Below are positions 5,385-39,365 of a stretch of DNA of 64,000 nucleotides, piece after piece. The position numbers and the translations under genes are program-made. The notes under the pieces are model-generated. The model was not told the origin of the DNA and searched no databases. It saw only the letters and a list, made by a program, of their open reading frames with translations. Where the stretch lies: assembly GCA_021820465.1 (NCBI GenBank), contig JAKADP010000005.1, forward strand, positions 9,661 to 73,660, in the 5' to 3' direction. Each line of letters begins with the position of its first letter. Position 1 is the first letter of the stretch. Source of the DNA: Bacillota bacterium (GTDB taxonomy: Bacteria > Bacillota > Sulfobacillia > Sulfobacillales > JAIMBI01).

Positions 5385-6302
5385 CTACGCCTGCGCGGCG
5401 GCTACGCGCTCGGGCAGCAACTCGGCCACGACCGGGGGCAGGGCGAACGCCGCCGCGTGGATGCGGGGGGTGTACCAGCGCGTGGGCGCCCCATGGGGCA
5501 GCCGCCGGATGGGTACGAGGGGCTCGGGCCCCAGGGACCCCATTGTGAACGTGAACAAGCTGCCGGGATAGGTGGGCACCGTGCACCAGTACACGCGGCA
5601 CACCGGAAACTCCCGGTCCACGTCGTGGGCGACGCGTGTCAGGACGTCGGGGTTGTAGATCGGTGTGCCACTCTGCTGCGCGTAGACGCCCTCGGGCAGG
5701 AGAGCGGCCCGAATGGCGCGGTGAAACTCGGTCGTGTACAGCACCTGCCCGGGACCGTCCCCTTCGGGATCGGTGGCGTCCACCAGAATGACGTCAAACG
5801 CGTCGGCCGCGTCCAGTGCCGCCACATACTGCACGCCGTCTTCGTACCGAATGGTGAGCCGCGGGTCGTCGAGGGCGGCCGTGTGGTGCGGAAGAAATTT
5901 TCTGGCGACCTCGACGACCGCGCGGTCGATCTCGACCATCACGACGTCCTGCACGCCAGGGACGCGCAGCACCTCGCGTGCGAGCCCGCCGTCGCCCCCT
6001 CCAATGATGAGCACGCGAGCCGGGTGCGGGTGCGATAGGAGCGGCACCAGCGCCAGCATCTCGTGATAGATGTACTCGTCTGCCGCTGTGGTTTGCAGGA
6101 TGCCGTCCAGCACCAGCGCGGTGCCAAACTGCTCTGTCTCCAGCACCTCGATATGTTGGTAGGGCGAGTCACCGGCATACAGCGTCCTCGTGACCTGCCA
6201 CTGCAGCCGGTGATGCGGAGACCCCGCCTCAGTAAACCAAGCCGGCGAGGAGCTCGGCGGGCACTGAGGGCTCGAGTGGATCCTTTCACTATCCATGGGC
6301 AA
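5385..6302 (-). CDS. speE: spermidine synthase (polyamine aminopropyltransferase)
   Basis: Motifs YQHIEVLET, LVLDG..Q, EYIYHEML, VLIIGGGDGG and MVEID. The start is TTG at 6302 or ATG at 6296. Confidence 0.9.
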   Translation of the reverse strand: MPMDSERIHSSPQCPPSSSPAWFTEAGSPHHRLQWQVTRTLYAGDSPYQHIEVLETEQFGTALVLDGILQTTAADEYIYHEMLALVPLLSHPHPARVLIIGGGDGGLAREVLRVPGVQDVVMVEIDRAVVEVARKFLPHHTAALDDPRLTIRYEDGVQYVAALDAADAFDVILVDATDPEGDGPGQVLYTTEFHRAIRAALLPEGVYAQQSGTPIYNPDVLTRVAHDVDREFPVCRVYWCTVPTYPGSLFTFTMGSLGPEPLVPIRRLPHGAPTRWYTPRIHAAAFALPPVVAELLPERVAAAQA

Positions 6303-19833: not shown

Positions 19834-20193
19834 ATGATTCGCCTATACCACTACCGCGGGTGAAGCACGTGCGTGAGGGCGAAAGCGTGGCTTTCGCAGG
19901 CGTTGGCCGACCAGAAGCTGTCGGCCGCTTTGCTGGAGGAGCGGGATCTCATCCGCGACCCCCTGTCGGCCCACGAGGTGCACGACCTGGTGCGCCGGGC
20001 CGGCGGCATCGAGGCGGTGCTGGCGACCCGAAGCCCGGCGTACCGGGCGCGGGTGAGCGCCGTCGCCGATGAGGCCGGCTGGCTCTCAGCCATGGCCGAA
20101 GAGCCGCGGCTCATCCGCCGACCCATTCTGGAGACGGATCGGGGCATGGCGGTGGGCTTCTCCGAGGCCAATTGGCGGCGGCTGCTGGACTGA
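19834..20193 (+). CDS. ArsC/Spx-family thioredoxin-fold protein with in-frame TGA (19861-19863) at the first Cys of CxxC: candidate selenoprotein
   Basis: TAGGAGG (19821-19827), 6 nt, then ATG at 19834. The translation is MIRLYHYRG-[TGA]-STCVRAKAWLSQALADQ... and is open to 20193. It aligns with the Spx/ArsC N-terminus (M..LY....C..CRKA..WL). The track shows only the fragment starting at GTG 19873. Confidence 0.7.
19879..19897 (+). promoter_or_regulatory. SECIS-like hairpin
   Basis: GCGAAAGC-GUG-GCUUUCGC is an 8-bp perfect stem that starts 15 nt after the TGA. Confidence 0.55.
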
Positions 20194-28776: not shown

Positions 28777-30042
28777 CTACAGCGCGACGGACGACGCGTG
28801 CGCCTGGACGCGCGACAGTCCCATGTAGGCGGTGAGCGCCCCGCCCACCGTCAAGATGGCCGCCAGCCACAGCATGGCCTGCAGTCCCCAGGCGTCCACG
28901 GCCGCCGTGCCCAGCAGGGGACCCATGAACCAGGATAGCTGCTGGGGCAGGATCGAGAGGTTCATGATGGAGCTCTTGCGGTCTGGCGGGCTGACCTTGG
29001 CTAGGAGCGTCATCAGGTTGGCGGAGACGCCCCCCTGAAAGAGCCCTTGGACCGTCCGGCTGACGGCGATGACGTCCAGGATGGCCACCCATGCCTGACC
29101 CACCATGCCCACGGCGTTGCCCAAAAGCGACAGCCGAAGGCTCGTGAGCGCCCCGGTGCGGTCCCCGAGCCATCCCAACAGCGGGGTGCCAAGCGCCAGC
29201 GCCGCCCCGGCCACCCCAAACACGAGGCCAATCACCACGGGCAGCGGCGTCGTCAGGTGGGCGTGCCGGTACGCCACGCCCACCCAGAGAGGCAGGAACG
29301 GCTGCACCATGCCGATGCCCAGCGCGAATAGGAAGAACACCAGAAACAGCTGGCGCACGGCCGGCGTCCGCATCACGTCCTTGACCGCCGAGAGCGCCAG
29401 CTGCCCGGTCTTGGCGGTGCTTCTCTGACGCGGCTCCTCCTTCAGAAACGCCATCAGCAGCAGGGCGCCGGCCGCGCTGGCGGCGCTGTCGATCCAAAAC
29501 AGCGTGCGCAGCCCGGGGCCGGCGGCGATGAAGCCCCCAATGAGCGGGCCGACGGCGGCGGCCACGGAGGATCCCGAGGCCACCAGCGCGATGGCCAGCC
29601 CGGTGCGGCGGGCGGGGGTGATGTCCGACTGCACCGCCAGCATGACGCCGGTGTTGCCCATGGCCAGGGCCGACAGCATGCGCGCCGCCGCCAGCTGCCA
29701 GGGCGTCTGCGCCATGGCCGCGACCGCAAACAGCACCGCCTCGACAACCGAGCTGCGGACAATCACGGGCTTTCGCCCGTAGCGCTCGGCCCAAGCCCCC
29801 CAGAATGGCAGCAGGGGCAGCCCTACCAAGCCGAGAGCCCCCATGAGCCCGGTCCAGGTGGCCACCGCGTCGGCCGGCACGTGCAGCTGGCGGAGATACA
29901 GGGGGGTGAAGGCGGTAAAGTGGCCCCAGGCCAGCGATTCGGCGAAGCTAGCGGCCATGAAGAGCGCGACAGTCACCGGCCAGCGGTTTCTGTGCCGCTG
30001 GCCGGTTTCGCTCGATGGGTGGTCCGGGGTCCTGGGTCCCAC
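28777..30042 (-). CDS. MFS transporter
   Basis: MFS loop motif WGAWAERYGRKPVI and 12 TM-like segments. GTG at 30042 follows GAGGAGGG with a 5-nt spacer. The track start is at 30057. Confidence 0.85.
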   Translation of the reverse strand: MGPRTPDHPSSETGQRHRNRWPVTVALFMAASFAESLAWGHFTAFTPLYLRQLHVPADAVATWTGLMGALGLVGLPLLPFWGAWAERYGRKPVIVRSSVVEAVLFAVAAMAQTPWQLAAARMLSALAMGNTGVMLAVQSDITPARRTGLAIALVASGSSVAAAVGPLIGGFIAAGPGLRTLFWIDSAASAAGALLLMAFLKEEPRQRSTAKTGQLALSAVKDVMRTPAVRQLFLVFFLFALGIGMVQPFLPLWVGVAYRHAHLTTPLPVVIGLVFGVAGAALALGTPLLGWLGDRTGALTSLRLSLLGNAVGMVGQAWVAILDVIAVSRTVQGLFQGGVSANLMTLLAKVSPPDRKSSIMNLSILPQQLSWFMGPLLGTAAVDAWGLQAMLWLAAILTVGGALTAYMGLSRVQAHASSVAL

Positions 30043-30075
30043 AGGCGCCCTCCTCATCCGATGGGGCTCGAGGCG

Positions 30076-30897
30076 CTAGTCCGTCAGGGGAAGCACCATC
30101 TGGGGCTCCGGCACCACATGATCCGCGCGGCCCTGCACCACGCCAGTGCCGATGGAGAAGTATTCGATGACGTGGCTGCCCCAGCCGTGGCTCTTCTCTT
30201 GAATGCGGACCGCCACGATGCCCTCGGCCCCCATTTCGGCCGCTTCGGTCTGCATCCGCTCCATGGCCAGCTCCCGCGAGTCGTAAAGCGCCTGGGTGAA
30301 GTTGGCCATCTCCACGTTTTGGCCCATGGCGCGCACGCTCTGCGCGATCGTCTGATGCGCCACGTGGTAGACGCAGTTGCCCATGGTGAGGCCTACGGGC
30401 TTGTACCCGGCCTTTAAGAGCGTCCAGAAGTCCTGGCCCGACAGGTCACTGGTAAAGGGCTTGCCGTGGGCCGGCCGGTGGCTCTCGCCCAGGGACCGCA
30501 CGGCCGTGCCGACGGCCATGAACTCGGCGAGGCCCGGGCCCCACTCGTAGCGGTTCACGTCCAGCCGCACGCCGATAACCCCGTCCGCTCCCAGCTGGTC
30601 CGCCTCTTCCTCCATGCGGGACATCGCAAGCTCGCGCGCGTGGTACATGGCCTGCGTCAGCACCGTCAGCTCTTCGTTCTTGCGGAACATCTGAGACTGG
30701 TAGCCAATGTGGTAAATCGAACTCCCCACGACGAGGCCCAGCGGCTCGAAGCCTGCCTCGCGCACCAGCAGGAACTCGTTCACGGTGAGGTCAGAGGTCC
30801 ACAGGCGGTGCTCGCTCTGGCGCATGCGATTGAGCCGCTCCAACGCATGCTGCGGCAGATCGCTCGCTCCACTCGATGCCGGCGTGTCCGAAGTCAT
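30076..30897 (-). CDS. tandem YbjQ/UPF0145 (putative heavy-metal-binding domain) protein
   Basis: Two YbjQ-like repeats: GLVVGSSIYHIGYQ ... ADGVIGVRLD ... MAVGTAV, then GLTMGNCVYHVA ... AEGIVAVRI ... FSIGTGV. ATG follows GGAAGGAAGG. Confidence 0.8.
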   Translation of the reverse strand: MTSDTPASSGASDLPQHALERLNRMRQSEHRLWTSDLTVNEFLLVREAGFEPLGLVVGSSIYHIGYQSQMFRKNEELTVLTQAMYHARELAMSRMEEEADQLGADGVIGVRLDVNRYEWGPGLAEFMAVGTAVRSLGESHRPAHGKPFTSDLSGQDFWTLLKAGYKPVGLTMGNCVYHVAHQTIAQSVRAMGQNVEMANFTQALYDSRELAMERMQTEAAEMGAEGIVAVRIQEKSHGWGSHVIEYFSIGTGVVQGRADHVVPEPQMVLPLTD

Positions 30898-30951: not shown

Positions 30952-31998
30952 CTAGGGCTCTACGGGCGCCCCCTCCGTGTTGGCGAGGGTCTCGCCAGAC
31001 TCCACGGGGCCCGCATTGAGGTCCAAGGCGTGGTCCGCCAGATTCACCACCGGCCGGACAGCTGGCGCGGGATGCTTGCCGTCGAGCCGTCCGACGGCCG
31101 TGCCAATCACCGTCAGGTGAATGATGTGGTCCCGAAAGCTTTGCATAGTGCCGTACCCCATTCCGTACCCGCTGCCATAGCCGCCGCCCCAGCCGCCCAT
31201 GGCCGGCCGCTCTACCTCAATTTCGTCGACGGTCATATGCCACTCGGCGCCCAGCACCCCGTCGGCCGCCACCTCGCGGGCTTGGGCGCGCAGTCCGCCC
31301 ACCACGAAATCCCGAGCTTCATACACGGCGCGCGAGAAGTCGGGCACCTCCTGGTTGGTCCAGCTATTTTCGGAGTAGTTGGCTTGCCACGTGGTCATCA
31401 CGTAGTAGGCGGTGGTGGAAAACGACAGCGTGAGGGGTATGTAGCCCGCGCGGAACAGCGCCAGCGTATCTTCGGCCGTCATGCCGCCCATAAAGGGCCG
31501 GGCGGGGGCGGGCTGGCCCTCAAATGCGACGGCGGTCCCAAACGCCGTGAACTCCGACAGGCCGGCCCCCCACTCCGGGTACCGCACCTCGACGCGGCAG
31601 TTCACCACGCCGTGGGCGCCCAGCATCGCCGCTTCCGCCATGAGGCGGTCGATGGCCGTCTGGCGAGCGGTCGTAATGGCCAGGGTGAAGGGGCGAATGT
31701 CGCCATTGCCCCATGAGTTGGTGAGCCAGCCGGGATAGAAGGCCGCATGCATCACACAGGACCCGGCCACCTGGCCCAGTGCCCTCAAGCGCAGGTGGCG
31801 CGAGACGGCAAAGTCGGGCGCCGTGAGCGTGCTGGTCCACGGCGCCTGGCCGGACTTCAGTCGGTTCAGGCGGTCAATGGCGTCGACGGGGAGCCGCCCC
31901 GCCTCGAGTGCCTCGATGCTCGCGGCTTGCCGTGCCAGCCGCGCCGCCTCGTCGTGGGGGTCCGGCCGGGGGCCGGACCGCCTGCTCCAAATCGGAAT
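30952..31998 (-). CDS. tandem YbjQ/UPF0145 protein, paralogue of 30076..30897, with a probable AUU start
   Basis: The track gives only 30952..31788 (TTG). The frame is open upstream to a TGA at 32025-32023, and that stretch encodes LPVDAIDRLNRLKSGQAPWTSTLTAPDF. This is homologous to LPQHALERLNRMRQSEHRLWTSDLTVNEF in the paralogue. There is no ATG, GTG or TTG in that stretch. ATT at 31998 lies 6 nt after AAGGAGGT. Confidence 0.7.
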   Translation of the reverse strand: MPIWSRRSGPRPDPHDEAARLARQAASIEALEAGRLPVDAIDRLNRLKSGQAPWTSTLTAPDFAVSRHLRLRALGQVAGSCVMHAAFYPGWLTNSWGNGDIRPFTLAITTARQTAIDRLMAEAAMLGAHGVVNCRVEVRYPEWGAGLSEFTAFGTAVAFEGQPAPARPFMGGMTAEDTLALFRAGYIPLTLSFSTTAYYVMTTWQANYSENSWTNQEVPDFSRAVYEARDFVVGGLRAQAREVAADGVLGAEWHMTVDEIEVERPAMGGWGGGYGSGYGMGYGTMQSFRDHIIHLTVIGTAVGRLDGKHPAPAVRPVVNLADHALDLNAGPVESGETLANTEGAPVEP

Positions 31999-32046: not shown

Positions 32047-32430
32047 CTACAACAGGAACTGCTCCAGCGCCGTGCGGGCAGACTCGCTCGCCTGGGCATG
32101 TTCCCACAGCGCGGTGGTCAGCTCGTGCAGCCAGTGGTCGAGCGTCGCCGGCTCGGTCTTGAGGGCGATGCCGCGGACCACCTTCGCGATGCGATACGTG
32201 AACTCGCCATGCGCGTGCTCGGCCGTGAACGTTTGATCGCCCAGCGTCACCGTGATGTGCACCACCGGCCGCTGGGCTTTCTGGAACGGAAAGCCGCCGT
32301 GGCGCAACACGACCGCCCCGGCGGGCAGCGCCTGCGTCAACTTATCCGCCAGCACTTCGTGGAACGTGCTGAGGTCGCTGCTGGCGGAGCGCAGCGCTCC
32401 GGCCAGGGTGTCGAATGACCAGTCCTCCAT
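32047..32430 (-). CDS. hypothetical protein (operon member, unknown family)
   Basis: ATG at 32430 follows AGGAGG with a 6-nt spacer (track start 32445). The composition looks coding, and I recognise no motif. Confidence 0.6.
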   Translation of the reverse strand: MEDWSFDTLAGALRSASSDLSTFHEVLADKLTQALPAGAVVLRHGGFPFQKAQRPVVHITVTLGDQTFTAEHAHGEFTYRIAKVVRGIALKTEPATLDHWLHELTTALWEHAQASESARTALEQFLL

Positions 32431-32448: not shown

Positions 32449-32694
32449 TTAACGGCCGAGCCGCCGCTCCATCTCCTGGCGATTGAACCCGATGATCAGG
32501 TCCTCCCGCCCGTCCGGCCACTGCAGCACGGTGGTGGGCGTGGACCGGGATCCCAGCGCCATCAGCTGGTCAATGTACTCCGGATTGTCGGGCAGATTCA
32601 GCTCGGTGAACACATAACCCGCTTGAGAAAGCCACGCTTTCTCCGTTTCGCAGGCACCTCACCCCGGTTGGGTGAATACCCGGATGACTGGCAT
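32449..32694 (-). CDS. glutaredoxin/NrdH-like protein with in-frame TGA (complement of 32659-32661) at the first Cys of CxxC: candidate selenoprotein
   Basis: My own translation is MPVIRVFTQPG-[TGA]-GACETEKAWLSQAGYVFTELNLPDNPEYIDQLMALGSRSTPTTVLQWPDGREDLIIGFNRQEMERRLGR. This is the glutaredoxin fold pattern (beta1, CxxC, a cis-Pro region TP, then GF). Both halves are below the track size cut-off. Confidence 0.7.
32625..32643 (-). promoter_or_regulatory. SECIS-like hairpin
   Basis: GAGAAAGC-GUG-GCUUUCUC is an 8-bp perfect stem that starts 15 nt after the TGA. The geometry is the same as at 19879-19897. Confidence 0.55.
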
Positions 32695-33022
32695 CGTCGT
32701 CTCGCTGGCCACCTATCTCACATCTTTTCTGTTCCAATTCGACTTGGCCGAATGCGCGGAGCCGCCAATCTTCTGCCTCTCGGCAGCGCCGTGGCTCTAT
32801 TATACGATAGTGGGGGGCGCCGGCCGCCCGGGTCCACGCGTCTCTGATCTTCGGAAAGTGCCAGGATGGCCGAACATGCCGTTCGCTCCGGAGCAGGACC
32901 CGGGCCGGGCGGCGCGAAGCCGGGCGATGGGAGCCGGAGATGCGGCGGCCGGGGCCGCTCCCGCACCCACGGGGAGAGCGCGGAGTCCAGCGAGCACGAC
33001 GAGAGCGAGGAGCGTGACACAT

Positions 33023-33472: not shown

Positions 33473-33943
33473 ATGCGAGCGGTGGCCGAGATGGGGGTCC
33501 GAGGTGACCAGGCGAGCTTGGTTGACCTGATGTGGGAATTTGACGACGCGGTGAGTGCTTACTGGAAGCAGCTCCATCACGATTTGCGCGAGCTGCCCTG
33601 TCGGGTAGGGGAACTGAGAGTGCTGTGGCACATTCTCCAGGACGACACGGCTACGGGAACGGACCTAGCCCGCCGCCTCGGCATTAGCCGCGCGGCGACG
33701 TCGAATCTGCTGAAGCGCCTGACGGAATCCGGCTACCTGACGTCGGCCACCGACGAGCAGGATCATCGGCGGCGCCGCTGGGTCTTGACGGCCTCGGCGC
33801 GGCGCCTCTTGGAGCGCGTCGCACAGCGGCGGCTTGCCGTGTGGGGCCCGCTGTGGCAGAGCTTGTCGCCCACTGATCAGCAGAGGCTGGTGCGCTCCAT
33901 GGAGCAGCTGGGCTCTGGCCGCGGCACGGCCGCCTGGAAGTAG
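33473..33943 (+). CDS. MarR family transcriptional regulator
   Basis: The winged HTH is LRVLWHILQDDTATGTDLARRLGISRAATSNLLKRLTESGYL...D.RRRRW.LT. Confidence 0.85.
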   Translation: MRAVAEMGVRGDQASLVDLMWEFDDAVSAYWKQLHHDLRELPCRVGELRVLWHILQDDTATGTDLARRLGISRAATSNLLKRLTESGYLTSATDEQDHRRRRWVLTASARRLLERVAQRRLAVWGPLWQSLSPTDQQRLVRSMEQLGSGRGTAAWK

Positions 33944-34128
33944 CGGATGGCGGATCCGGCAAGTTTCCACGCCTGAGTGCGATCCTGGACGCCGGCCCAT
34001 TCGTGCCCGCCTGCCCGACTCGCTGGGCATGTTACACTCGCTCTGGGCCAAGCGCTGCCGCAGACGACGGGTCTGCGGTGCGGGGGGCCTCTGGCGTTGG
34101 AGGGACGAGCCCGAGGGGAGGTCGCACG

Positions 34129-35094
34129 ATGGCGAACAAGATCGGCAAGGGATTGGCGGCCGTCATGGCTGGCGGAATGGTTGCGGCGCTGGCCGCGTGT
34201 GGCACCAGTGCCCAGGCCAGTTCGCCGCCCGTGGCGACGGTGGGTCACGACGTCATCAGCAAGCAAGAGTGGCTGTCGACGGTGAAGAGTCTCGGCATGT
34301 TAAACGGCAGCCCGCTGTCGACCAACAAGGCAGCAGAGTACAGCCAGGTAAAGCAACTGATGGTCTGGTCGGCGGTGGAGCAGTATGTGCTGGCGCACCA
34401 CTGGACCACCAATGCCAAGGCGAGCCGGCAGGCGGCGACCGCACTGAGTCAGATTGAAAAGCAGGCGGGCAGCAAAACCGCGCTCGTAAAGCAGCTCAAA
34501 ACCCAGGGGCTGACCCTGGCGAATTTCTCCAGCTTTCTGACCAACCAAGAAATTTTGCAGGCGGCGTACGCCCGGGTGACGAAGAGCGTGAAGAAGCCCA
34601 CCACGGCCGCCATCCAGGCGTACTACAACCAGAACAAGAGCAGTTTTGTCCAGCCGGCCACGGATACGGTCCAGGCCATCCTGGTGAAGACCCGGGCCCA
34701 GGCCACGGCGCTGGAGGCCGAGCTGAAGGCGGGCAAGGCCACGTTTGCCGCGCTGGCCAAGGCGGACTCCCTCGACAAGGCCTCGGCTGCCAGTGGAGGC
34801 CAGATGGGTCCGATTCCCACCTCGGTGGCCACGGCGGCTTCGTCGGGCATTCCGGCGTCCTTCGTCACAGAGATGGACACCCTCAAGGCGGGCCAGTACG
34901 GCATCGCCGCGACGACGGCCGGGTACTACCTGATGCAGGTGACGGCGGTGACGCCGCAGAGCACCCAGTCGTTTAATGCCGTCAAGAGCCAGATTGCGAG
35001 CCAGTTGCTGTCCACCGCCCAAAGCAACACCTTTCAGAGCTTTGGCCAGCAGCAGCTCAAGAAGATGGCACACAGCATCAAGGTGAAGGCGTAG
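34129..35094 (+). CDS. prsA: parvulin-type peptidyl-prolyl isomerase lipoprotein (PrsA-like)
   Basis: ATG at 34129 follows GGGGAGGT. The lipobox is VAALAACG. The parvulin core is VQAILV...FAALAKADSLD..SAASGGQMG. Confidence 0.8.
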   Translation: MANKIGKGLAAVMAGGMVAALAACGTSAQASSPPVATVGHDVISKQEWLSTVKSLGMLNGSPLSTNKAAEYSQVKQLMVWSAVEQYVLAHHWTTNAKASRQAATALSQIEKQAGSKTALVKQLKTQGLTLANFSSFLTNQEILQAAYARVTKSVKKPTTAAIQAYYNQNKSSFVQPATDTVQAILVKTRAQATALEAELKAGKATFAALAKADSLDKASAASGGQMGPIPTSVATAASSGIPASFVTEMDTLKAGQYGIAATTAGYYLMQVTAVTPQSTQSFNAVKSQIASQLLSTAQSNTFQSFGQQQLKKMAHSIKVKA

Positions 35095-35124
35095 GCGCTG
35101 CGAGCGCCCCGGGTTCGTGGCTTG

Positions 35125-35160
35125 GCCCCCGGCCAGCGGCATGCTGGCCGGGGGCTTTGT
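35125..35160 (+). terminator. intrinsic terminator after the prsA-like gene
   Basis: A 13-bp perfect stem GCCCCCGGCCAGC / GCTGGCCGGGGGC with loop GGCAT, followed by TTTGT. Confidence 0.75.
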
Positions 35161-35232
35161 GGCGTGCCGCGAGGCAAGCCCGTGGGAGACGGCCGATGGG
35201 TGTGCTATCGTGCGGGCAGAGGGGGTCGACGC

Positions 35233-35982
35233 ATGGGAGAGCCGATCGAGACGCTGGATGGATGGTTCGTGTGGCACCAGCTCACCACGGTGGACTGGCC
35301 CACGTGGTGGGGGTGGCCCCCGGCGGATCGGGACGCGGCGATGGCCGAGCGGCTGCTCCTGTGGGAGGCATGGACCGCGCTGGCGGGCAACCAGCAAGGC
35401 AGTGTGGGTGTATATCAAATGGCGGGCGACCGCGCCGACTTCCTGACGATTCACCTGCGGCCGACGCTGGATGAGCTCATTGATCTGAAGGCGTCGCTGC
35501 AGCGAACAGCGTTTTACGCCGTGGAGCGGCCGCACTACTCGTACATATCCGTTGTCGAACTGGCGACCTACGTGGCCAAGGGCAACCCGGATCCCGAAAC
35601 CAATCCGGAGCTTCGGGCGCGCCTGCACCCGAGCCTGCCGCCCCGGCACGCCGTGTGCTTCTACCCCATGTCCAAGCGGCGCCAAGGGGCGGACAACTGG
35701 TACATGACGGATCGGGCGGCGCGAGCCCATCTCATGCGAGGCCATGGCGCCGTGGGACACAAGTACAGCCAGCAGGTGACACAGATCATCTCCGGATCCC
35801 AGGGGCTGGACGACTGGGAGTGGGGCGTCACCCTGCTGGCCGACGACCCCATCTGGTTTAAAAAGTTAGTGTACGAAATGCGCTTTGACGAGGCCAGCGC
35901 CCGGTTCGCGGAGTTTGGCCCGTTTTACGTGGGCACGCGGCTGGATCCCCAGGGATGGACCCGGCGCCTGGGGGGGCGGTGA
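35233..35982 (+). CDS. hemQ: coproheme decarboxylase (HemQ/ChdC, chlorite-dismutase-like)
   Basis: The internal ATG at 35233 gives MGEPIETLDGWFVWHQL... The protein also shows CFYPMSKRR..G.NWY and the MRFDEASARFAEFGPFYVG C-terminus. Confidence 0.9.
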   Translation: MGEPIETLDGWFVWHQLTTVDWPTWWGWPPADRDAAMAERLLLWEAWTALAGNQQGSVGVYQMAGDRADFLTIHLRPTLDELIDLKASLQRTAFYAVERPHYSYISVVELATYVAKGNPDPETNPELRARLHPSLPPRHAVCFYPMSKRRQGADNWYMTDRAARAHLMRGHGAVGHKYSQQVTQIISGSQGLDDWEWGVTLLADDPIWFKKLVYEMRFDEASARFAEFGPFYVGTRLDPQGWTRRLGGR

Positions 35983-37037
35983 GCCGCCGGCCGACCCCGC
36001 GACTGCTCACGGCCCTGGCGGGGGGAGTTCCTGACCGCACGCCGGTGTGGTTCATGCGGCAGGCGGGCCGGTATCAGCCGGCCTATCGGGCGCTGCGCGC
36101 CCGCTACAGCATGCTGGAGCTGGCCAGCACGCCGGCGCTGGCCGCCGAAGTGACGGTGGCGCCCGTGAGGGATCTGGGGGTTGATGCCGCGATCTTGTTT
36201 TCCGACATCATGGTGCCCATGGGCCCCGCAGGCGTCGCCTTTGAGATTCAAGAGGGGGTTGGGCCCGTGGTGGCCCGCCCCATCCGCGACGCGGCGGCGG
36301 TGGCGGCGCTGCGCGAGGTGGACCCCGCGCGCGATTTGCCGGAGGTGCTGGAAGCGGTGGAGCGCTCGACGGCCGCCCTGGGGGGGGTGCCGCTGATTGG
36401 CTTTGCCGGGGCGCCGTTTACGCTGGCGAGCTATCTCATCGAAGGCCGCCCCAGCCGGCAGTACGTGGAAACGAAGCGCCTCATGTGGAGCGACCCTGGG
36501 CTGTGGGACGCCCTCATGGAGCACTTGTCGCGCGTCGTGGGCGCGCACCTGGCGGCCCAGGCCCACGCCGGGGCGTCGGTGCTGCAGGTGTTCGACAGCT
36601 GGGCGGGCGCGCTGTCGCGGGCGGACTACCAGGCCCGGGTGGCGCCTCACATGCGGCGCCTGTTTGCCCAGCTGGCCCCGCTGGGCGTGCCGGTCATTTC
36701 CTTCGCCGTGGGCGCGTCCCATCTGGTGGAGGTGATGGCCGACGGCCCCACCGCCTTGTCTGTGGATTGGCGAGAGCCCCTGGGGCATGTCCGGCAGCGG
36801 GTGCCGCGGGGCATGCCCCTGCAAGGCAATTTGGACCCCGTGGCGCTGTTGGCGCCATGGCCCCATCTGGTCAGCCAGGCAGAAGCCGTGCTGGCCGAGG
36901 GAGGGAGCCAGGGATTCGTCTTCAACCTGGGCCATGGCATTCTGCCGTCCACGGATCCGGACACGGTGCGGCGGCTGGTCCAGTGGGTTCATGATGCGGC
37001 GGCGCCCGGTCGGACAGACGGGGGGGCCCGCCCATGA
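35979..37037 (+). CDS. hemE: uroporphyrinogen decarboxylase
   Basis: Motifs PVWFMRQAGRY and ILFSDI. GTG at 35979 overlaps the hemQ stop (GTGA). The track start is at 35955. Confidence 0.9.
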   Translation: MSRRPTPRLLTALAGGVPDRTPVWFMRQAGRYQPAYRALRARYSMLELASTPALAAEVTVAPVRDLGVDAAILFSDIMVPMGPAGVAFEIQEGVGPVVARPIRDAAAVAALREVDPARDLPEVLEAVERSTAALGGVPLIGFAGAPFTLASYLIEGRPSRQYVETKRLMWSDPGLWDALMEHLSRVVGAHLAAQAHAGASVLQVFDSWAGALSRADYQARVAPHMRRLFAQLAPLGVPVISFAVGASHLVEVMADGPTALSVDWREPLGHVRQRVPRGMPLQGNLDPVALLAPWPHLVSQAEAVLAEGGSQGFVFNLGHGILPSTDPDTVRRLVQWVHDAAAPGRTDGGARP

Positions 37038-37978
37038 CGCGCGAAGGCCCGGTGGGGGTGTTGGTGATGGCGCACGGGGTGGCCGCGGGCGTGGAGGACA
37101 TTCCCCGCTACTATGCCCACATTCGCGGCGACCGGCCCCGAAACCCCGCCGTGGAGCAGGAGCTGGTGGACCGGTATCGGGCCATCGGCGGACATTCGCC
37201 CCTCATCGAGATCACGGCGGCCGTGGCGCGCGGCCTAGAGGAGGAGCTGGCGCGGCGCCACGGTCCGGCCCGGTATCGCGTGGCCTTCGGATTTCGCCAT
37301 GCCGCACCGTCGATCGAGGACGCCCTCTTAGAGCTCCAGACGCGTGGAGCCGTGCGCTACATCGGCCTGGTGCAGGCTCCGCACTATTCCGCGATGAGCG
37401 TGGGGGCGTATGAGCGGGCGGCCAGTGCCGGCCCGCTGCCGGGCCACACCATTGGGGCGTGGCACGTGGAGCCCCGCCTGATGCACCTGCTGGCGGACCG
37501 GGTGCGGGAGGCGTCGGCGTCGCTGCCGGTGCCACTGGAGGACACGGCGGTGGCGTTCACCGCGCACAGCCTGCCGGAGCGGATCCTGAGCACGGGCGAC
37601 CCATATCCGGGGCAGCTGGCCGAGACGGCTGCCGCAGTCGCCCGCATCCTGGGGCTCACCACCTACGACGTGGGCTGGCAGAGTGCGGGACGCACGCCGG
37701 AGCCCTGGATGGGCCCCGATGTGCTGGAGCTTTTGCGCTCGTGGGCCGCCGCCGGGCGGCGGGCGGGGCTGATCGCCCCCGTGGGGTTTGTATCGGACCA
37801 CTTGGAGGTGCTGTACGATCTCGACGTGGAGGCGCGGGCTTTGGCGGAATCGCTGGGGCTCGCCTTCGCGCGCACGCGGTCGCTGAACGCGGACCCGGAG
37901 TTCATCCGGGTGCTGGCCGACGTGATCGACCGGGACGAGCGGGATCGGGAGCCGGGCGGGGGTGAGGGCCGTGCGTGA
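37034..37978 (+). CDS. hemH: ferrochelatase (coproporphyrin ferrochelatase type)
   Basis: Motifs LVMAHG, YY.HIR and GFVSDHLEVLYDLD. There is an ATGA overlap with hemE. Confidence 0.9.
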   Translation: MTREGPVGVLVMAHGVAAGVEDIPRYYAHIRGDRPRNPAVEQELVDRYRAIGGHSPLIEITAAVARGLEEELARRHGPARYRVAFGFRHAAPSIEDALLELQTRGAVRYIGLVQAPHYSAMSVGAYERAASAGPLPGHTIGAWHVEPRLMHLLADRVREASASLPVPLEDTAVAFTAHSLPERILSTGDPYPGQLAETAAAVARILGLTTYDVGWQSAGRTPEPWMGPDVLELLRSWAAAGRRAGLIAPVGFVSDHLEVLYDLDVEARALAESLGLAFARTRSLNADPEFIRVLADVIDRDERDREPGGGEGRA

Positions 37979-39365
37979 GTTGGCCGTGGTGGGGGCGGGG
38001 ATGGCTGGTCTGGCGGCGGCCCACCGATTGGAGCAGCTGGTGCCTGATGCCCGCGTGACCGTGTACGAGGCGGCGGATCGGGTGGGGGGCGCCGTGCGAT
38101 CCGAGGCGGTGCCCCCGGGTTCGGTGGTGATGGAGGCGGGGCCGGATTCCCTCTTGGCCCGCAAGCCCGCCGGAGTGGCGCTGGCGGAGGCGGTGGGCTT
38201 GGCCGGCGAGCTGGTGCCCTCCCACCCCGGGGCCCGCGGGGCCCTCTTGTATCTCGACGGCCAGCTCTGGCCACTGCCCCCGGGCGTGGTGGCGGGGGTG
38301 CCTCTTCAGCCTGAGCGCCTGGAGGGGTCGCCCCTGCTGACGGCCGAGGGCCGGGCAGCCCTCCTGGCGGATTTGGACGCGCCGCCGGAGTCTGTGACGG
38401 CAGACGTCAGTCTGGGCGGGTTTCTGGCACGGCACCTCGGGGATGAGTGGGTCGACCGCGTCGCGTCCGCCTTGCTGTCGGGAATCTACGCAGGCCACAT
38501 TCGCGAGCTGTCCCTGCTGGCCACCTACCCCGAGCTGGCGGCTGCCGCCCGCCACGGAAGCCTCATGCGCGGCTTGGCCGCCGAGCGCCGGGCCCACCCG
38601 CCGCGGCCGGGTCCGGTATTTGTGACGCTGGTGGGCGGGCTGGAGACGCTGCCGCGCCGGGTGGCTGCGCGGCTCCGGACTCCGGTGCACACCGGAGTGG
38701 CCATCCGGAGCGTGACGGCCGAAGGCGCCCGCTATCGGCTCACCGGCGACCGCGAGGACCACGTCGTGGACGGCGTCGTGGTGGCGACGCCCGCTTGGGT
38801 GGCGGCGGGCCAGCTTCAGCGGCTGGCGCCGGCGGCGGCCGCGCGGCTGCGCGAGGTGCCCTACGCGAATCTGGCGGTGGTGACGCTGCGATATGCCTCA
38901 GGCGTTGTGCCGCCCCCCGGCATGACGGGGGTGCTGGTGCCCGCGGGCAGCGGGGTGGCGCTGACCGCCATCACGTTTGTGGGTCAAAAGTGGGCCCACC
39001 GCACGGACCCGGTGGACGTGCCGGTGCGCGCGTTTTACGGGCGTGCGGCCACGAGTCGGGGAGAGGACAACGTGCTCACGTGGTCTGACGACCGGTTTCG
39101 CCGCGAGGTGGCCGCTGACCTGCGCCAGGTGCTGGGATGGACGGCCGACCCCTACGCAGTGCAGGTGCATCGGCATCCGGCGGCGATGCCCCAGTATCTG
39201 GTGGGCCATCGGGATCGGGTGGCCGAGGTGGAAGCCGAGGTGGCACGCTGGCCGGGACTGGCCCTGGCGGGCGCCGCTCTGCATGGGGTGGGCATCCCTG
39301 ATGTCATCCGCAGCGGCGAGGAAGCGGCCGAGCGCGTGGCTCGCTCGGGGGAGTTGCGGCCCTAA
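37971..39365 (+). CDS. hemY: coproporphyrinogen/protoporphyrinogen oxidase (HemY/CgoX)
   Basis: FAD fold LAVVGAGMAGLAAAHRL, in the hemEHY order. GTG at 37971 overlaps the hemH end. The track start is at 37962. Confidence 0.85.
   Translation: MRELAVVGAGMAGLAAAHRLEQLVPDARVTVYEAADRVGGAVRSEAVPPGSVVMEAGPDSLLARKPAGVALAEAVGLAGELVPSHPGARGALLYLDGQLWPLPPGVVAGVPLQPERLEGSPLLTAEGRAALLADLDAPPESVTADVSLGGFLARHLGDEWVDRVASALLSGIYAGHIRELSLLATYPELAAAARHGSLMRGLAAERRAHPPRPGPVFVTLVGGLETLPRRVAARLRTPVHTGVAIRSVTAEGARYRLTGDREDHVVDGVVVATPAWVAAGQLQRLAPAAAARLREVPYANLAVVTLRYASGVVPPPGMTGVLVPAGSGVALTAITFVGQKWAHRTDPVDVPVRAFYGRAATSRGEDNVLTWSDDRFRREVAADLRQVLGWTADPYAVQVHRHPAAMPQYLVGHRDRVAEVEAEVARWPGLALAGAALHGVGIPDVIRSGEEAAERVARSGELRP

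What the first reader, a model, noticed from the sequence alone, without database searches (positions are those of the whole stretch)
32449..32694. Unannotated glutaredoxin/NrdH-like gene with TGA at the CxxC position (U-G-A-C)
The reverse-strand translation from ATG 32694 gives MPVIRVFTQPG-[TGA]-GACETEKAWLSQAGYVFTELNLPDNPEYIDQLMALGSRSTPTTVLQWPDGREDLIIGFNRQEMERRLGR (81 codons). This is a complete glutaredoxin-like fold: beta1, redox motif, helix, the TP cis-Pro region and GF. The TGA (complement of 32659-32661) replaces the N-terminal Cys of CxxC. The gene is invisible in the ORF track because each half is under 60 aa. Its TAA stop lies 3 nt before the first ATG (32445) of the next ORF, and 18 nt before the start I prefer (32430), at the head of a five-gene minus-strand cluster.
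Basis: partly seen in the sequence, partly recalled or inferred. Interest (0 to 1): 0.8.

Follow-up and report, generated by a model that had tools for sequence, protein, structure and literature searches.

The report
Unannotated selenocysteine glutaredoxin-like gene
A small redox protein gene that looks broken by a stop codon is most likely a real gene in which that stop codon is read as the rare amino acid selenocysteine; this kind of protein is already known, so it is a missed annotation and not a new kind of biology.

Summary
The minus-strand frame 32712/32694-32449 encodes a glutaredoxin-fold protein with an in-frame TGA (32661-32659) where the first Cys of CxxC would be, giving U-G-A-C.

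- **Conservation:** the TGA is present in near-identical contigs from three other samples. It is also present in two orthologues that are only 76-84% identical in DNA. The 8 codons before the TGA carry only synonymous changes, and changes elsewhere fall mostly on third codon positions.
- **Cys homologue:** more distant orthologues in the same operon carry TGC.
- **Hairpin:** GAGAAAGC-GUG-GCUUUCUC starts 15 nt after the UGA and meets the four published bacterial SECIS criteria. It is built from rare codons, keeps pairing through changes on both sides, and is absent or decayed in the Cys, Gln and Trp forms.
- **Second gene:** the same 15-mer occurs only once more in the window, 20 nt after an in-frame TGA at the Cys position of an ArsC/Spx-family gene (19834-20193).
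- **Not a reassigned codon:** TGA is the commonest true stop in the window.

This is not a pseudogene or an error. It is not an NrdH member. Sec machinery could not be checked; none is in the window. Sec-glutaredoxins are already known, so this is a new member of a known kind.

The parts
32449..32712 (-). Coding sequence of the glutaredoxin-like selenoprotein, stop TAA 32451-32449.
32659..32661 (-). In-frame TGA, the predicted Sec codon and first position of the U-G-A-C redox motif. The second Cys of the motif is TGC at 32652-32650.
   Evidence: It aligns to TGC in L003 and L012.
32625..32643 (-). bSECIS-like hairpin GAGAAAGC-GUG-GCUUUCUC: 8-bp stem, loop 32635-32633, starting 15 nt after the UGA. 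A possible lower stem GCCUGC/GCGGGU extends it to 32655-32617.
   Evidence: criteria quoted from PMC13188914
32796..32811 (-). 16-mer ACTATCGTATAATAGA, invariant in the window, L001 and L002, about 85 nt upstream of the start. It contains TATAAT and the inverted repeat CTAT...ATAG. It is a candidate -10 element or operator; function was not tested.
   Evidence: The simple promoter scan did not call it.
32047..32430 (-). Conserved 127-aa protein with no Cys, no Pfam or NCBIfam family and no structural match. It always follows the redoxin gene.
30952..31788 (-). YbjQ_1 (UPF0145) domain protein A. Public gene calls start it at 31770 (272 aa).
30076..30897 (-). Tandem YbjQ_1 domain protein B (273 aa).
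28777..30057 (-). MFS transporter, the last gene of the minus-strand cluster.
19834..20193 (+). Second candidate selenoprotein gene in the window, of the ArsC/Spx family: MIRLYHYRG-U-STC. TGA lies at 19861-19863 and hairpin GCGAAAGC-GUG-GCUUUCGC at 19879-19897. It is indirect evidence that this organism decodes Sec.

Best explanation
This is an intact, expressed gene for a roughly 9-10 kDa glutaredoxin-fold thiol/selenol oxidoreductase whose first active-site residue is selenocysteine (U-G-A-C).

Shown from sequence and comparison:
- The UGA lies in a reading frame that is conserved on both sides.
- It pairs with Cys in homologues.
- It is followed at a fixed distance by a conserved hairpin.

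Inferred from established knowledge of bacterial Sec decoding:
- During translation the hairpin, whose GUG loop lies 23 nt after the UGA, is bound by SelB-GTP-Sec-tRNA(Sec).
- This delivers Sec to the UGA instead of release factor 2 terminating the chain.

Inferred by analogy with Sec- and Cys-glutaredoxins:
- The selenolate attacks a substrate disulfide or sulfenic acid.
- Cys at motif position 4 resolves the intermediate to a selenenylsulfide.
- A thioredoxin reductase or a low-molecular-weight thiol re-reduces it.

The physiological substrate is unknown. The gene is the first of a conserved operon: redoxin, a 127-aa unknown protein, two YbjQ-domain proteins and an MFS transporter. Its partner is probably encoded there.
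For: 1. Fold and motif. Pfam Glutaredoxin is above its cut-off with U read as C. An AlphaFold model of the Cys orthologue P0003 has a beta-alpha-beta-alpha-beta-beta-alpha layout (pLDDT 73). Its best PDB match is 7c10, cGrx1 of Clostridium oremlandii, which is natively a UPxC selenoprotein (PMC7642778).
2. Sec/Cys pair. TGA in the window, L001 and L002 aligns to TGC in L003 and TGT in L012.
3. Purifying selection across the TGA. The 8 codons upstream carry 1-5 synonymous and 0 non-synonymous differences. Overall differences by codon position are 3/2/15, 11/6/28 and 12/4/30.
4. Not an assembly error. The TGA is present in L014, L015 and L016, contigs from three other samples that are 99.6-99.7% identical to the window.
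5. Hairpin. It has an 8-bp stem, a GUG loop, 23 nt between UGA and loop, and -8.8 kcal/mol, which meets all four bSECIS criteria quoted in PMC13188914.
6. Rare codons. The hairpin uses AAA (11.5% of Lys), CTT (4.3% of Leu) and TCT (5.3% of Ser).
7. Covariation. All 56 stem cells pair across 7 TGA-bearing sequences, and 2 pairs change on both sides: A-U to U-A or U-G, and A-U to C-G.
8. Link to the TGA. The hairpin is absent from the Cys and Gln forms, although the Gln forms keep the EKAWL peptide, and it is decayed in the TGG form.
9. Second gene. The exact 15-mer GAAAGCGTGGCTTTC occurs twice in 64 kb, against 0.06 expected. Each copy lies 20 nt after an in-frame TGA at the Cys position of a thioredoxin-fold gene.
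10. No codon reassignment. TGA ends 13 of 25 Pfam-backed genes in the window.
11. Wider family. Further TGA-bearing relatives with the same hairpin exist in other genomes and are annotated as truncated 'MAWLSQ...' stumps.
Against: - No selA, selB, selD or tRNA-Sec lies in the 64-kb window or in the fetched loci. The rest of the genome could not be searched.
- No literature in the held library links Thermaerobacter-like organisms to selenocysteine.
- A hairpin of this class is not rare by itself in this GC-rich DNA. About 4% of all TGA triplets in the window have one at the right distance.
- The 81-nt region as a whole does not fold better than shuffles (z = -0.87).
- Orthologues tolerate Gln at this position and one relative has Trp. 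The position is therefore not strictly a redox nucleophile across the family.
- There is no expression or selenium-incorporation data.
Confidence: 0.85

Rival explanations
1. The UGA is read through without the Sec machinery, for example by near-cognate Trp or Cys tRNA, possibly stimulated by the hairpin. The product would be a full-length protein carrying Trp or Cys instead of Sec.
For: One relative (L018, P0019) has a true TGG codon at this position, W-G-A-C, so Trp is tolerated somewhere in the family. Sec machinery was not found in the window.
Against: The hairpin matches the SelB-type bSECIS consensus in loop sequence and spacing. It is shared with a second gene whose TGA sits at the catalytic Cys of an ArsC/Spx fold. 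In the TGG relative the hairpin has decayed to -3.8 kcal/mol, as expected when a Sec codon is lost. The closest solved relative is a proven selenoprotein.
Confidence: 0.06
2. The TGA is a real stop. The functional product is only the C-terminal piece started at an internal codon such as GTG 32613 (54 aa), as public gene callers annotate it, or the locus makes a short leader peptide.
For: Gene callers report a 54-aa ORF here and 62-68-aa 'MAWLSQ' ORFs in relatives.
Against: The upstream segment IRVFTQPG is conserved with only synonymous changes. It supplies strand beta-1 and the active-site motif of the fold. A 54-aa fragment would lack beta-1 and helix alpha-1. The internal start is not conserved as a start.
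Confidence: 0.04
3. The gene is a decaying pseudogene inactivated by a nonsense mutation.
For: There is an in-frame stop in a short gene. Orthologues show a non-conserved active site (CAAS, QGAC), which could suggest relaxed constraint.
Against: The same TGA is kept in lineages only 76-84% identical in DNA, with no frameshift or second stop. Substitutions are dominated by third positions. The C-terminal half is invariant across the whole clade. Rare codons are maintained to keep the hairpin.
Confidence: 0.03
4. The TGA is a sequencing or assembly error for TGC or TGT.
For: None beyond the a priori possibility.
Against: The identical codon is found in the window and in contigs from three other same-species samples, ERR3200804, GCA_027447405.1 and ERZ27237466. 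It is also found in the two MAGs JAJZWS and JAJZWV.
Confidence: 0.01

Closest known systems
Selenoprotein glutaredoxin cGrx1 of Clostridium oremlandii (PDB 7c10/7c12; the Sec-Grx family, PF00462 with UxxC, listed among prokaryotic selenoproteins in PMC13188914)
   Same: Small single-domain glutaredoxin fold. Sec is the first residue of a UxxC motif at the N-terminus of helix alpha-1. It comes from a Bacillota organism. It is the best structural match of the family model (Foldseek E 1.9e-4, TM 0.61/0.73) and a top sequence match in the PDB.
   Different: Identity is only about 26-28%. The motif is U-G-A-C, not U-P-x-C. There is an inserted WPDGRED turn between the last two strands and an invariant LGSRSTPTTV stretch. 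The partner is unknown, whereas cGrx1 reduces the selenoprotein MsrA. The operon context is different.
NrdH-redoxin / YruB-family glutaredoxin-like proteins (TIGR02194, TIGR02196), and the thioredoxin-like protein BC3987 of Bacillus cereus (PDB 3zij)
   Same: About 75-85 residues. They share the 'TP...GF' layout in place of the glutathione-binding GG-x-dD of classical Grx. They are the best NCBIfam and PDB sequence hits.
   Different: Scores are far below the curated cut-offs: 41.2 against 88.55, and 37.6 against 85.75. There is no CVQC motif, no WSGFRP motif and no nrd genes nearby. Those proteins use Cys, not Sec.
ArsC-family (seleno)proteins (NF041106; 'ArsC-like' in PMC1794560)
   Same: The window's second TGA gene (19834-20193) belongs to this superfamily. 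It carries a near-identical SECIS-like hairpin and the same KAWLSQA peptide after the UxxC motif.
   Different: It is a different fold subclass (ArsC/Spx, 119 aa) and is not an orthologue of the gene under study. It also scores below the NF041106 cut-off (28.4 against 85).
UXX-star glutaredoxin-like selenoproteins (NF041212, NF041211, NF041114)
   Same: Glutaredoxin-like selenoproteins with weak profile similarity (34.3 bits).
   Different: The score is below the cut-off of 66. By its name (read from my own knowledge; not tested here) that family is defined by a Sec three residues before the C-terminal stop. Here the Sec is the N-terminal active-site residue.

Membership tests
Bacterial selenoprotein gene (Sec decoded at UGA) | In-frame UGA that aligns with Cys in homologues (Sec/Cys pair) | tested here: met
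   TGA in the window, L001 and L002 aligns with TGC in L003 and TGT in L012 at the same column
Bacterial selenoprotein gene (Sec decoded at UGA) | UGA conserved in orthologues, with protein-coding constraint on both sides | tested here: met
   0 non-synonymous against 1-5 synonymous changes in the 8 upstream codons, and an excess of third-position changes. The TGA is present in L001, L002, L014, L015 and L016.
Bacterial selenoprotein gene (Sec decoded at UGA) | [quoted passage not shown] | tested here: met
   GUG loop, 8 bp, 23 nt, -8.8 kcal/mol. Pairing is kept at 100% across 7 sequences, with 2 pairs changed on both sides. The chance baseline is about 4% of TGA triplets.
Bacterial selenoprotein gene (Sec decoded at UGA) | selA, selB, selC (tRNA-Sec) and selD present in the genome | not testable with these tools
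   None were found in the 64-kb window or the fetched loci. Indirect support comes from a second TGA gene with the same hairpin.
Bacterial selenoprotein gene (Sec decoded at UGA) | Selenium shown in the protein | not testable with these tools
   Needs 75Se labelling or mass spectrometry
Glutaredoxin (Pfam PF00462) | Profile score above the gathering threshold | tested here: met
   32.5 bits against 22.9, with U replaced by C
Glutaredoxin (Pfam PF00462) | Thioredoxin fold, with the CxxC/CxxS motif at the start of helix 1 and a cis-Pro loop | tested here: met
   The AF2 model of orthologue P0003 has elements E15-21, H26-36, E41-46, H53-58, E66-70, E76-80, H84-92. The invariant S-T-P-T-T stretch sits at the cis-Pro position. 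The model is of moderate confidence (pLDDT 73).
Glutaredoxin (Pfam PF00462) | Glutathione-dependent chemistry (CPYC-type motif, GG-x-dD glutathione site) | tested here: inconclusive
   The motif is UGAC, and the sequence has IIGFNR instead of GG-x-dD. The reductant cannot be inferred from sequence.
NrdH-redoxin (TIGR02194) | Score above the curated cut-off | tested here: not met
   37.6 bits against 85.75
NrdH-redoxin (TIGR02194) | C-V/M-Q-C motif, WSGFRP motif and linkage to nrdI/E/F (these features are taken from my own knowledge of the family) | tested here: not met
   The motif is UGAC and the sequence has IIGFNRQ. The neighbours are a 127-aa unknown protein, YbjQ proteins, an MFS transporter, a glyoxalase and MarR.
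YruB-family glutaredoxin-like protein (TIGR02196) | Score above the curated cut-off | tested here: not met
   41.2 bits against 88.55
Uxx-star glutaredoxin-like selenoproteins (NF041212) | Score above the cut-off. (Family-name reading, from my own knowledge: Sec three residues from the C-terminus.) | tested here: not met
   34.3 bits against 66. Sec is residue 12 of 81, not C-terminal.

The most novel reading that the evidence does not exclude
Within strictly syntenic orthologues of this operon the 'catalytic' position is unusually labile. The forms are U-G-A-C, C-A-A-S and Q-(G/A)-A-C, plus W-G-A-C in a relative. The Cys form and the Gln form keep no redox residue in common, while the C-terminal half (LGSRSTPTTV..W.DGR.DLIIGF) is invariant. 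This could mean the conserved job is not classical dithiol exchange. It could instead be a dedicated, partner-bound role with the co-transcribed 127-aa and tandem-YbjQ proteins, for example a single-residue chalcogen relay or sensor, with Sec as an optional upgrade. Replacement of Sec by Gln or Trp rather than Cys would be an unusual evolutionary route.
Probability: 0.15. Interest if true: 0.55.

Novelty: new member of a known kind. Interest (0 to 1): 0.35.

Why it matters
**Annotation.** This gene is systematically mis-called in public assemblies. It appears as a 54-68-aa stump, is missing altogether, or has its TGA translated as Trp. No NCBIfam model reaches its cut-off. A profile together with the conserved hairpin GAGAWRGC-GUG-GCUNUCUC would recover a set of Sec-glutaredoxin-like genes in high-GC, Thermaerobacter-like Bacillota.

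**Biology.** The gene adds a selenoprotein, and with 19834-20193 probably two, to a lineage for which the held literature records no selenium use. The U, C, Q and W forms in one conserved operon offer a natural series for asking what Sec contributes. The finding does not change what is known about Sec decoding or glutaredoxins.

Tried and rejected
- **RNA and tRNA scans.** Rfam at gathering thresholds on the whole window and at E <= 10 on the locus gave nothing meaningful. ARAGORN found no tRNA-Sec in the window or in 7 loci.
- **Sec machinery.** Pfam scans of about 38 window ORFs found no SelA, SelB or SelD.
- **More selenoprotein genes.** A home-made scan for other in-frame TGA plus hairpin sites in coding-like frames gave only junk frames besides this gene. 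A covariance model of the UGA-plus-hairpin region found no instance beyond its own training sequences. The best new hits were the decayed TGG form (35.6 bits) and noise.
- **Metagenome scan.** It returned only one distant relative, L013.
- **The 127-aa neighbour.** It has no Pfam or NCBIfam family. An AF2 model with pLDDT 78.5 had no PDB match at E <= 0.001. The operon's function therefore stays unknown.
- **Literature.** Searches for the MAG accessions and for Thermaerobacter with selenocysteine or selenium found nothing.
- **Whole-region fold.** The 81-nt region is not more stable than shuffles, so whole-region stability was not used as evidence.
- **Codon reassignment.** Genome-wide reassignment of TGA was rejected because TGA is the commonest stop in the window.

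Full report
**1. What is in the sequence**

The TGA occupies 32661-32659. The ORF lister sees only a 54-aa piece, 32449-32613. With Cys in place of the stop, the 81-residue protein passes the Pfam Glutaredoxin model at 32.5 bits against a gathering score of 22.9.

In NCBIfam the best models all fall far below their cut-offs:

| Model | Score (bits) | Cut-off (bits) |
|---|---|---|
| YruB-family | 41.2 | 88.55 |
| NrdH | 37.6 | 85.75 |
| Uxx-star | 34.3 | 66 |

The window is 64-72% G+C. The gene heads a minus-strand cluster:
- the redoxin;
- a 127-aa protein of no known family, which starts at ATG 32430 behind a GGAGG;
- two YbjQ_1-domain proteins;
- an MFS transporter.

A glyoxalase-family gene, a MarR regulator, a PpiC-type rotamase and hemQ-hemE-hemH-hemY lie divergently upstream.

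**2. Is the TGA real and maintained?**

Contigs from three other samples are 99.6-99.7% identical to the window and carry the same TGA: Logan ERR3200804, NCBI GCA_027447405.1 and ENA ERZ27237466. A fourth contig of the same species (SRR25885109, 99.5%) starts inside the gene, downstream of the TGA.

Two MAG contigs labelled 'Bacillota bacterium' hold orthologues of 89% and 79% protein identity. These are L001 (JAJZWS010000040) and L002 (JAJZWV010000051), and they are only 76-84% identical to the window in DNA. Both have the same TGA and an otherwise open frame.

Between the three lineages, the eight codons before the TGA carry 1-5 synonymous and no non-synonymous differences. Over the whole gene, differences by codon position are 3/2/15, 11/6/28 and 12/4/30. 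Both halves are therefore translated in one frame under purifying selection. This excludes a sequencing error, a pseudogene and a product that starts after the TGA.

GTG 32712 is preceded by TAG in the window, and L001 has ATA where the window has ATG.

**3. Sec/Cys pair and the rest of the clade**

A word-indexed search of 5.8 billion proteins found only four full-length relatives. An exhaustive profile search of 1.84 billion cluster representatives found a single representative at E <= 1e-30, followed by a drop to generic glutaredoxin-like proteins. The clade is therefore small.

All relatives sit in the same operon, with the same 126-127-aa gene directly downstream and, wherever the contig reaches far enough, the YbjQ genes after it and glyoxalase, rotamase and HemQ upstream.
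- P0001 and P0003 have Cys at the TGA position, encoded by TGT or TGC, but their motif is C-A-A-S.
- P0002 and P0004 have Q-G-A-C and Q-A-A-C, with Gln encoded by CAA in one and CAG in the other.

So a Sec/Cys pair exists. The motif is nevertheless unusually variable among orthologues, while the stretch LGSRSTPTTV..W.DGR.DLIIGF is invariant.

**4. The hairpin**

Fifteen nucleotides after the UGA lies GAGAAAGC-GUG-GCUUUCUC (32643-32625). It has eight Watson-Crick pairs and an energy of -8.8 kcal/mol. A recent review quotes the consensus bacterial SECIS model (PMC13188914). All four of its criteria are met:

| Criterion | Consensus model | This hairpin |
|---|---|---|
| Apical loop | 3-9 nt | 3 nt |
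| Upper stem | 4-16 bp | 8 bp |
| UGA to loop | 16-37 nt | 23 nt |
| Energy | <= -7.5 kcal/mol | -8.8 kcal/mol |

On its own this is weak evidence. About 4% of all TGA triplets in this GC-rich window have such a hairpin at the right distance, and the 81-nt region does not fold better than shuffles. The weight comes from four further observations.

- **Codon choice.** The stem is made with codons that are rare here: AAA is 11.5% of Lys codons, CTT 4.3% of Leu and TCT 5.3% of Ser, in 25 Pfam-backed genes. These codons are kept in L001 and L002. The only change there is A to G, which gives a G-U pair.
- **Link to the TGA.** The hairpin is absent from the Cys and Gln orthologues, even though the Gln forms keep the peptide EKAWL.
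- **More TGA-bearing relatives.** The exhaustive search returned short proteins beginning 'MAWLSQ'. Their DNA shows a TGA upstream in frame and the same hairpin at the same distance:

| Locus | Peptide around the TGA | Hairpin |
|---|---|---|
| L019/L020 | VVVYTQPG-U-SACRAEMAWLSQ | GAGAUGGC-GUG-GCUGUCUC |
| L021/L022 | VIVYHQPG-U-HACQDEMAWLSQ | GAGAUGGC-GUG-GCUGUCUC |
| L024 | VIVYSQPG-U-GPCHAEMAWLSQ | GAGAUGGC-GUG-GCUAUCUC |

  Over seven TGA-bearing sequences, all 56 stem cells pair. Two pairs change on both sides: A-U to U-G or U-A, and A-U to C-G. Only 4 of 500 column shuffles reach the observed covariation score. The sample is small and the sequences are related, so this supports the structure but does not prove it.
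- **Decay when the TGA is lost.** One relative, L018, has a true TGG codon (W-G-A-C). Its hairpin has decayed to -3.8 kcal/mol.

Two low-GC relatives also carry TGA at this position, with their own G-led hairpins:
- L013: SRPD-U-PPC, with UGAAAGA-GGU-UCUUUCA.
- L023: SNG-U-GPC, with CAACCAA-GGG-UUGGUUG. Its annotators translated the TGA as Trp.

**5. Does this organism decode Sec?**

This could not be tested directly. No tRNA was detected at all, there was no Rfam hit, and no SelA, SelB or SelD was found among about 38 scanned ORFs. Two indirect points bear on the question.

- TGA is the commonest genuine stop codon in the window, ending 13 of 25 Pfam-backed genes. The codon is therefore not reassigned genome-wide.
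- The window holds a second gene of the same type. At 19834-20193 (+), an ArsC/Spx-family protein reads MIRLYHYRG-TGA-STCVRAKAWLSQ. The hairpin GCGAAAGC-GUG-GCUUUCGC again begins 15 nt after the TGA. The 15-mer GAAAGCGTGGCTTTC occurs exactly twice in 64 kb, at these two places, against 0.06 expected.

The simplest explanation is two genes adapted to one SelB.

The 127-aa neighbour has a 91%-identical homologue that NCBI names as coming from a Thermaerobacter sp. MAG (lineage). The host is therefore probably a Thermaerobacter-like thermophilic member of the Bacillota. The held literature says nothing on selenium use in that genus.

**6. Mechanism**

*Shown.* The gene has a conserved single reading frame across the UGA, a Sec/Cys pair, a conserved hairpin of SECIS type and a glutaredoxin fold.

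*Inferred from established knowledge of bacterial Sec decoding.* SelB-GTP-Sec-tRNA(Sec) binds the hairpin loop as the ribosome reaches the UGA and inserts Sec in competition with release factor 2.

*Inferred by analogy.* The selenolate at motif position 1 attacks an oxidised substrate. Cys at position 4 (TGC 32652-32650) resolves the intermediate to a selenenylsulfide. A thioredoxin reductase or a low-molecular-weight thiol then regenerates the protein.

The AlphaFold model of the Cys orthologue P0003 (pLDDT 73) matches best 7c10, 'dithiol cGrx1' (Foldseek E 1.9e-4), and then the thioredoxin-like BC3987, 3zij. cGrx1 of Clostridium oremlandii is natively a selenoprotein with a U(C)PxC motif and reduces the selenoprotein MsrA (PMC7642778).

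The substrate here is unknown. The downstream 127-aa protein has no family and no structural match, and YbjQ_1 is an uncharacterised domain.

**7. Comparison with what is known**

Sec-containing glutaredoxins (PF00462, UxxC) have been listed among bacterial selenoprotein families since 2005-2006, and one has been verified experimentally (PMC1794560; PMC13188914). ArsC-like selenoproteins are also listed.

The gene works like a Sec-glutaredoxin and passes the Pfam family test. It is not a member of NrdH, YruB or Uxx-star, because their curated scores and defining motifs are not met.

Three things are new, and all are modest:
- a narrow, unannotated subfamily with its own well-conserved SECIS;
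- its occurrence in a lineage with no recorded selenium use;
- the U, C, Q and W variation in one operon.

**8. Verdict**

| Explanation | Probability |
|---|---|
| Genuine selenoprotein gene | about 0.85 |
| Read-through without Sec | 0.06 |
| Truncated product | 0.04 |
| Pseudogene | 0.03 |
| Sequencing or assembly error | 0.01 |

Novelty: a new member of a known kind. Interest: 0.35.

Noticed in passing
window 19834-20193 (+); TGA 19861-19863; hairpin 19879-19897: Second candidate selenoprotein gene, of the ArsC/Spx family (MIRLYHYRG-U-STC). Its SECIS-like hairpin is nearly identical to the one under study, and it has the same KAWLSQA peptide after the motif. It scores below all NCBIfam cut-offs, including the ArsC (seleno)protein model NF041106 (28.4 against 85).
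   Followed up: partly
L019/L020 (GCA_027335425.1, GCA_021788705.1) 1480-1698; L021/L022 (GCA_027449225.1, GCA_027418525.1) 1480-1689; L024 120-347: A wider set of glutaredoxin-like genes reading ...QPG-TGA-xxC...E-M-A-W-L-S-Q, with the hairpin GAGAUGGC-GUG-GCUNUCUC. Public annotation shows them as truncated 62-68-aa ORFs starting 'MAWLSQ'. Their gene neighbourhoods differ from the one in the window.
   Followed up: partly
L009 2956-3231, L011 378-707 (Gln forms); L003 6001-6282, L012 1618-1896 (Cys forms); L018 1501-1755 (Trp form): Orthologues in the same operon have C-A-A-S or Q-(G/A)-A-C instead of U-G-A-C. Each has a single Cys, but at a different motif position. A more distant relative in a different gene neighbourhood has W-G-A-C, encoded by a real TGG. 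Replacement of Sec by Gln or Trp rather than Cys is unexplained.
   Followed up: partly
window 32796-32811 (-); L001 5851-5866; L002 5901-5916: The 16-mer ACTATCGTATAATAGA is invariant in an otherwise poorly conserved intergenic region upstream of the redoxin gene. It contains TATAAT and an inverted repeat CTAT...ATAG, and occurs once in the window. It may be a -10 element or an operator; a MarR gene lies nearby at 33473-33943.
   Followed up: partly
L023 744-989 (ENA ERZ23495077 scaffold_129676): A low-GC (34%) glutaredoxin gene whose in-frame TGA was translated as Trp by the depositor's gene caller (P0007, 'SNGWGPC'). It is very likely another Sec codon mis-read under an alternative genetic code.
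   Followed up: no
L013 about 5990-6230 (Ga0310344_10001463): A distant YruB-like glutaredoxin with TGA at the first motif position (SRPD-U-PPC). A 7-bp hairpin with a GGU loop starts 16 nt downstream.
   Followed up: no
L018 212-739 (-): A 175-aa GRDB (glycine reductase B family) fragment lies next to the Trp-form redoxin. It may be another selenoprotein gene truncated at its TGA, which would mean that genome still decodes Sec.
   Followed up: no
window 35122-39365 (+): A hemQ (chlorite-dismutase-like), hemE, hemH and hemY cluster, preceded by a PpiC-type rotamase gene (34003-35094). This arrangement is conserved next to the redoxin operon in all related loci. I read it as the coproporphyrin-dependent haem pathway, from my own knowledge.
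   Followed up: partly
window 32047-32430 (-): A conserved 127-aa protein with no Cys, no known family and no PDB structural match. The model has two N-terminal helices, a five-stranded sheet and two C-terminal helices (pLDDT 78.5). It always lies immediately downstream of the redoxin gene.
   Followed up: yes
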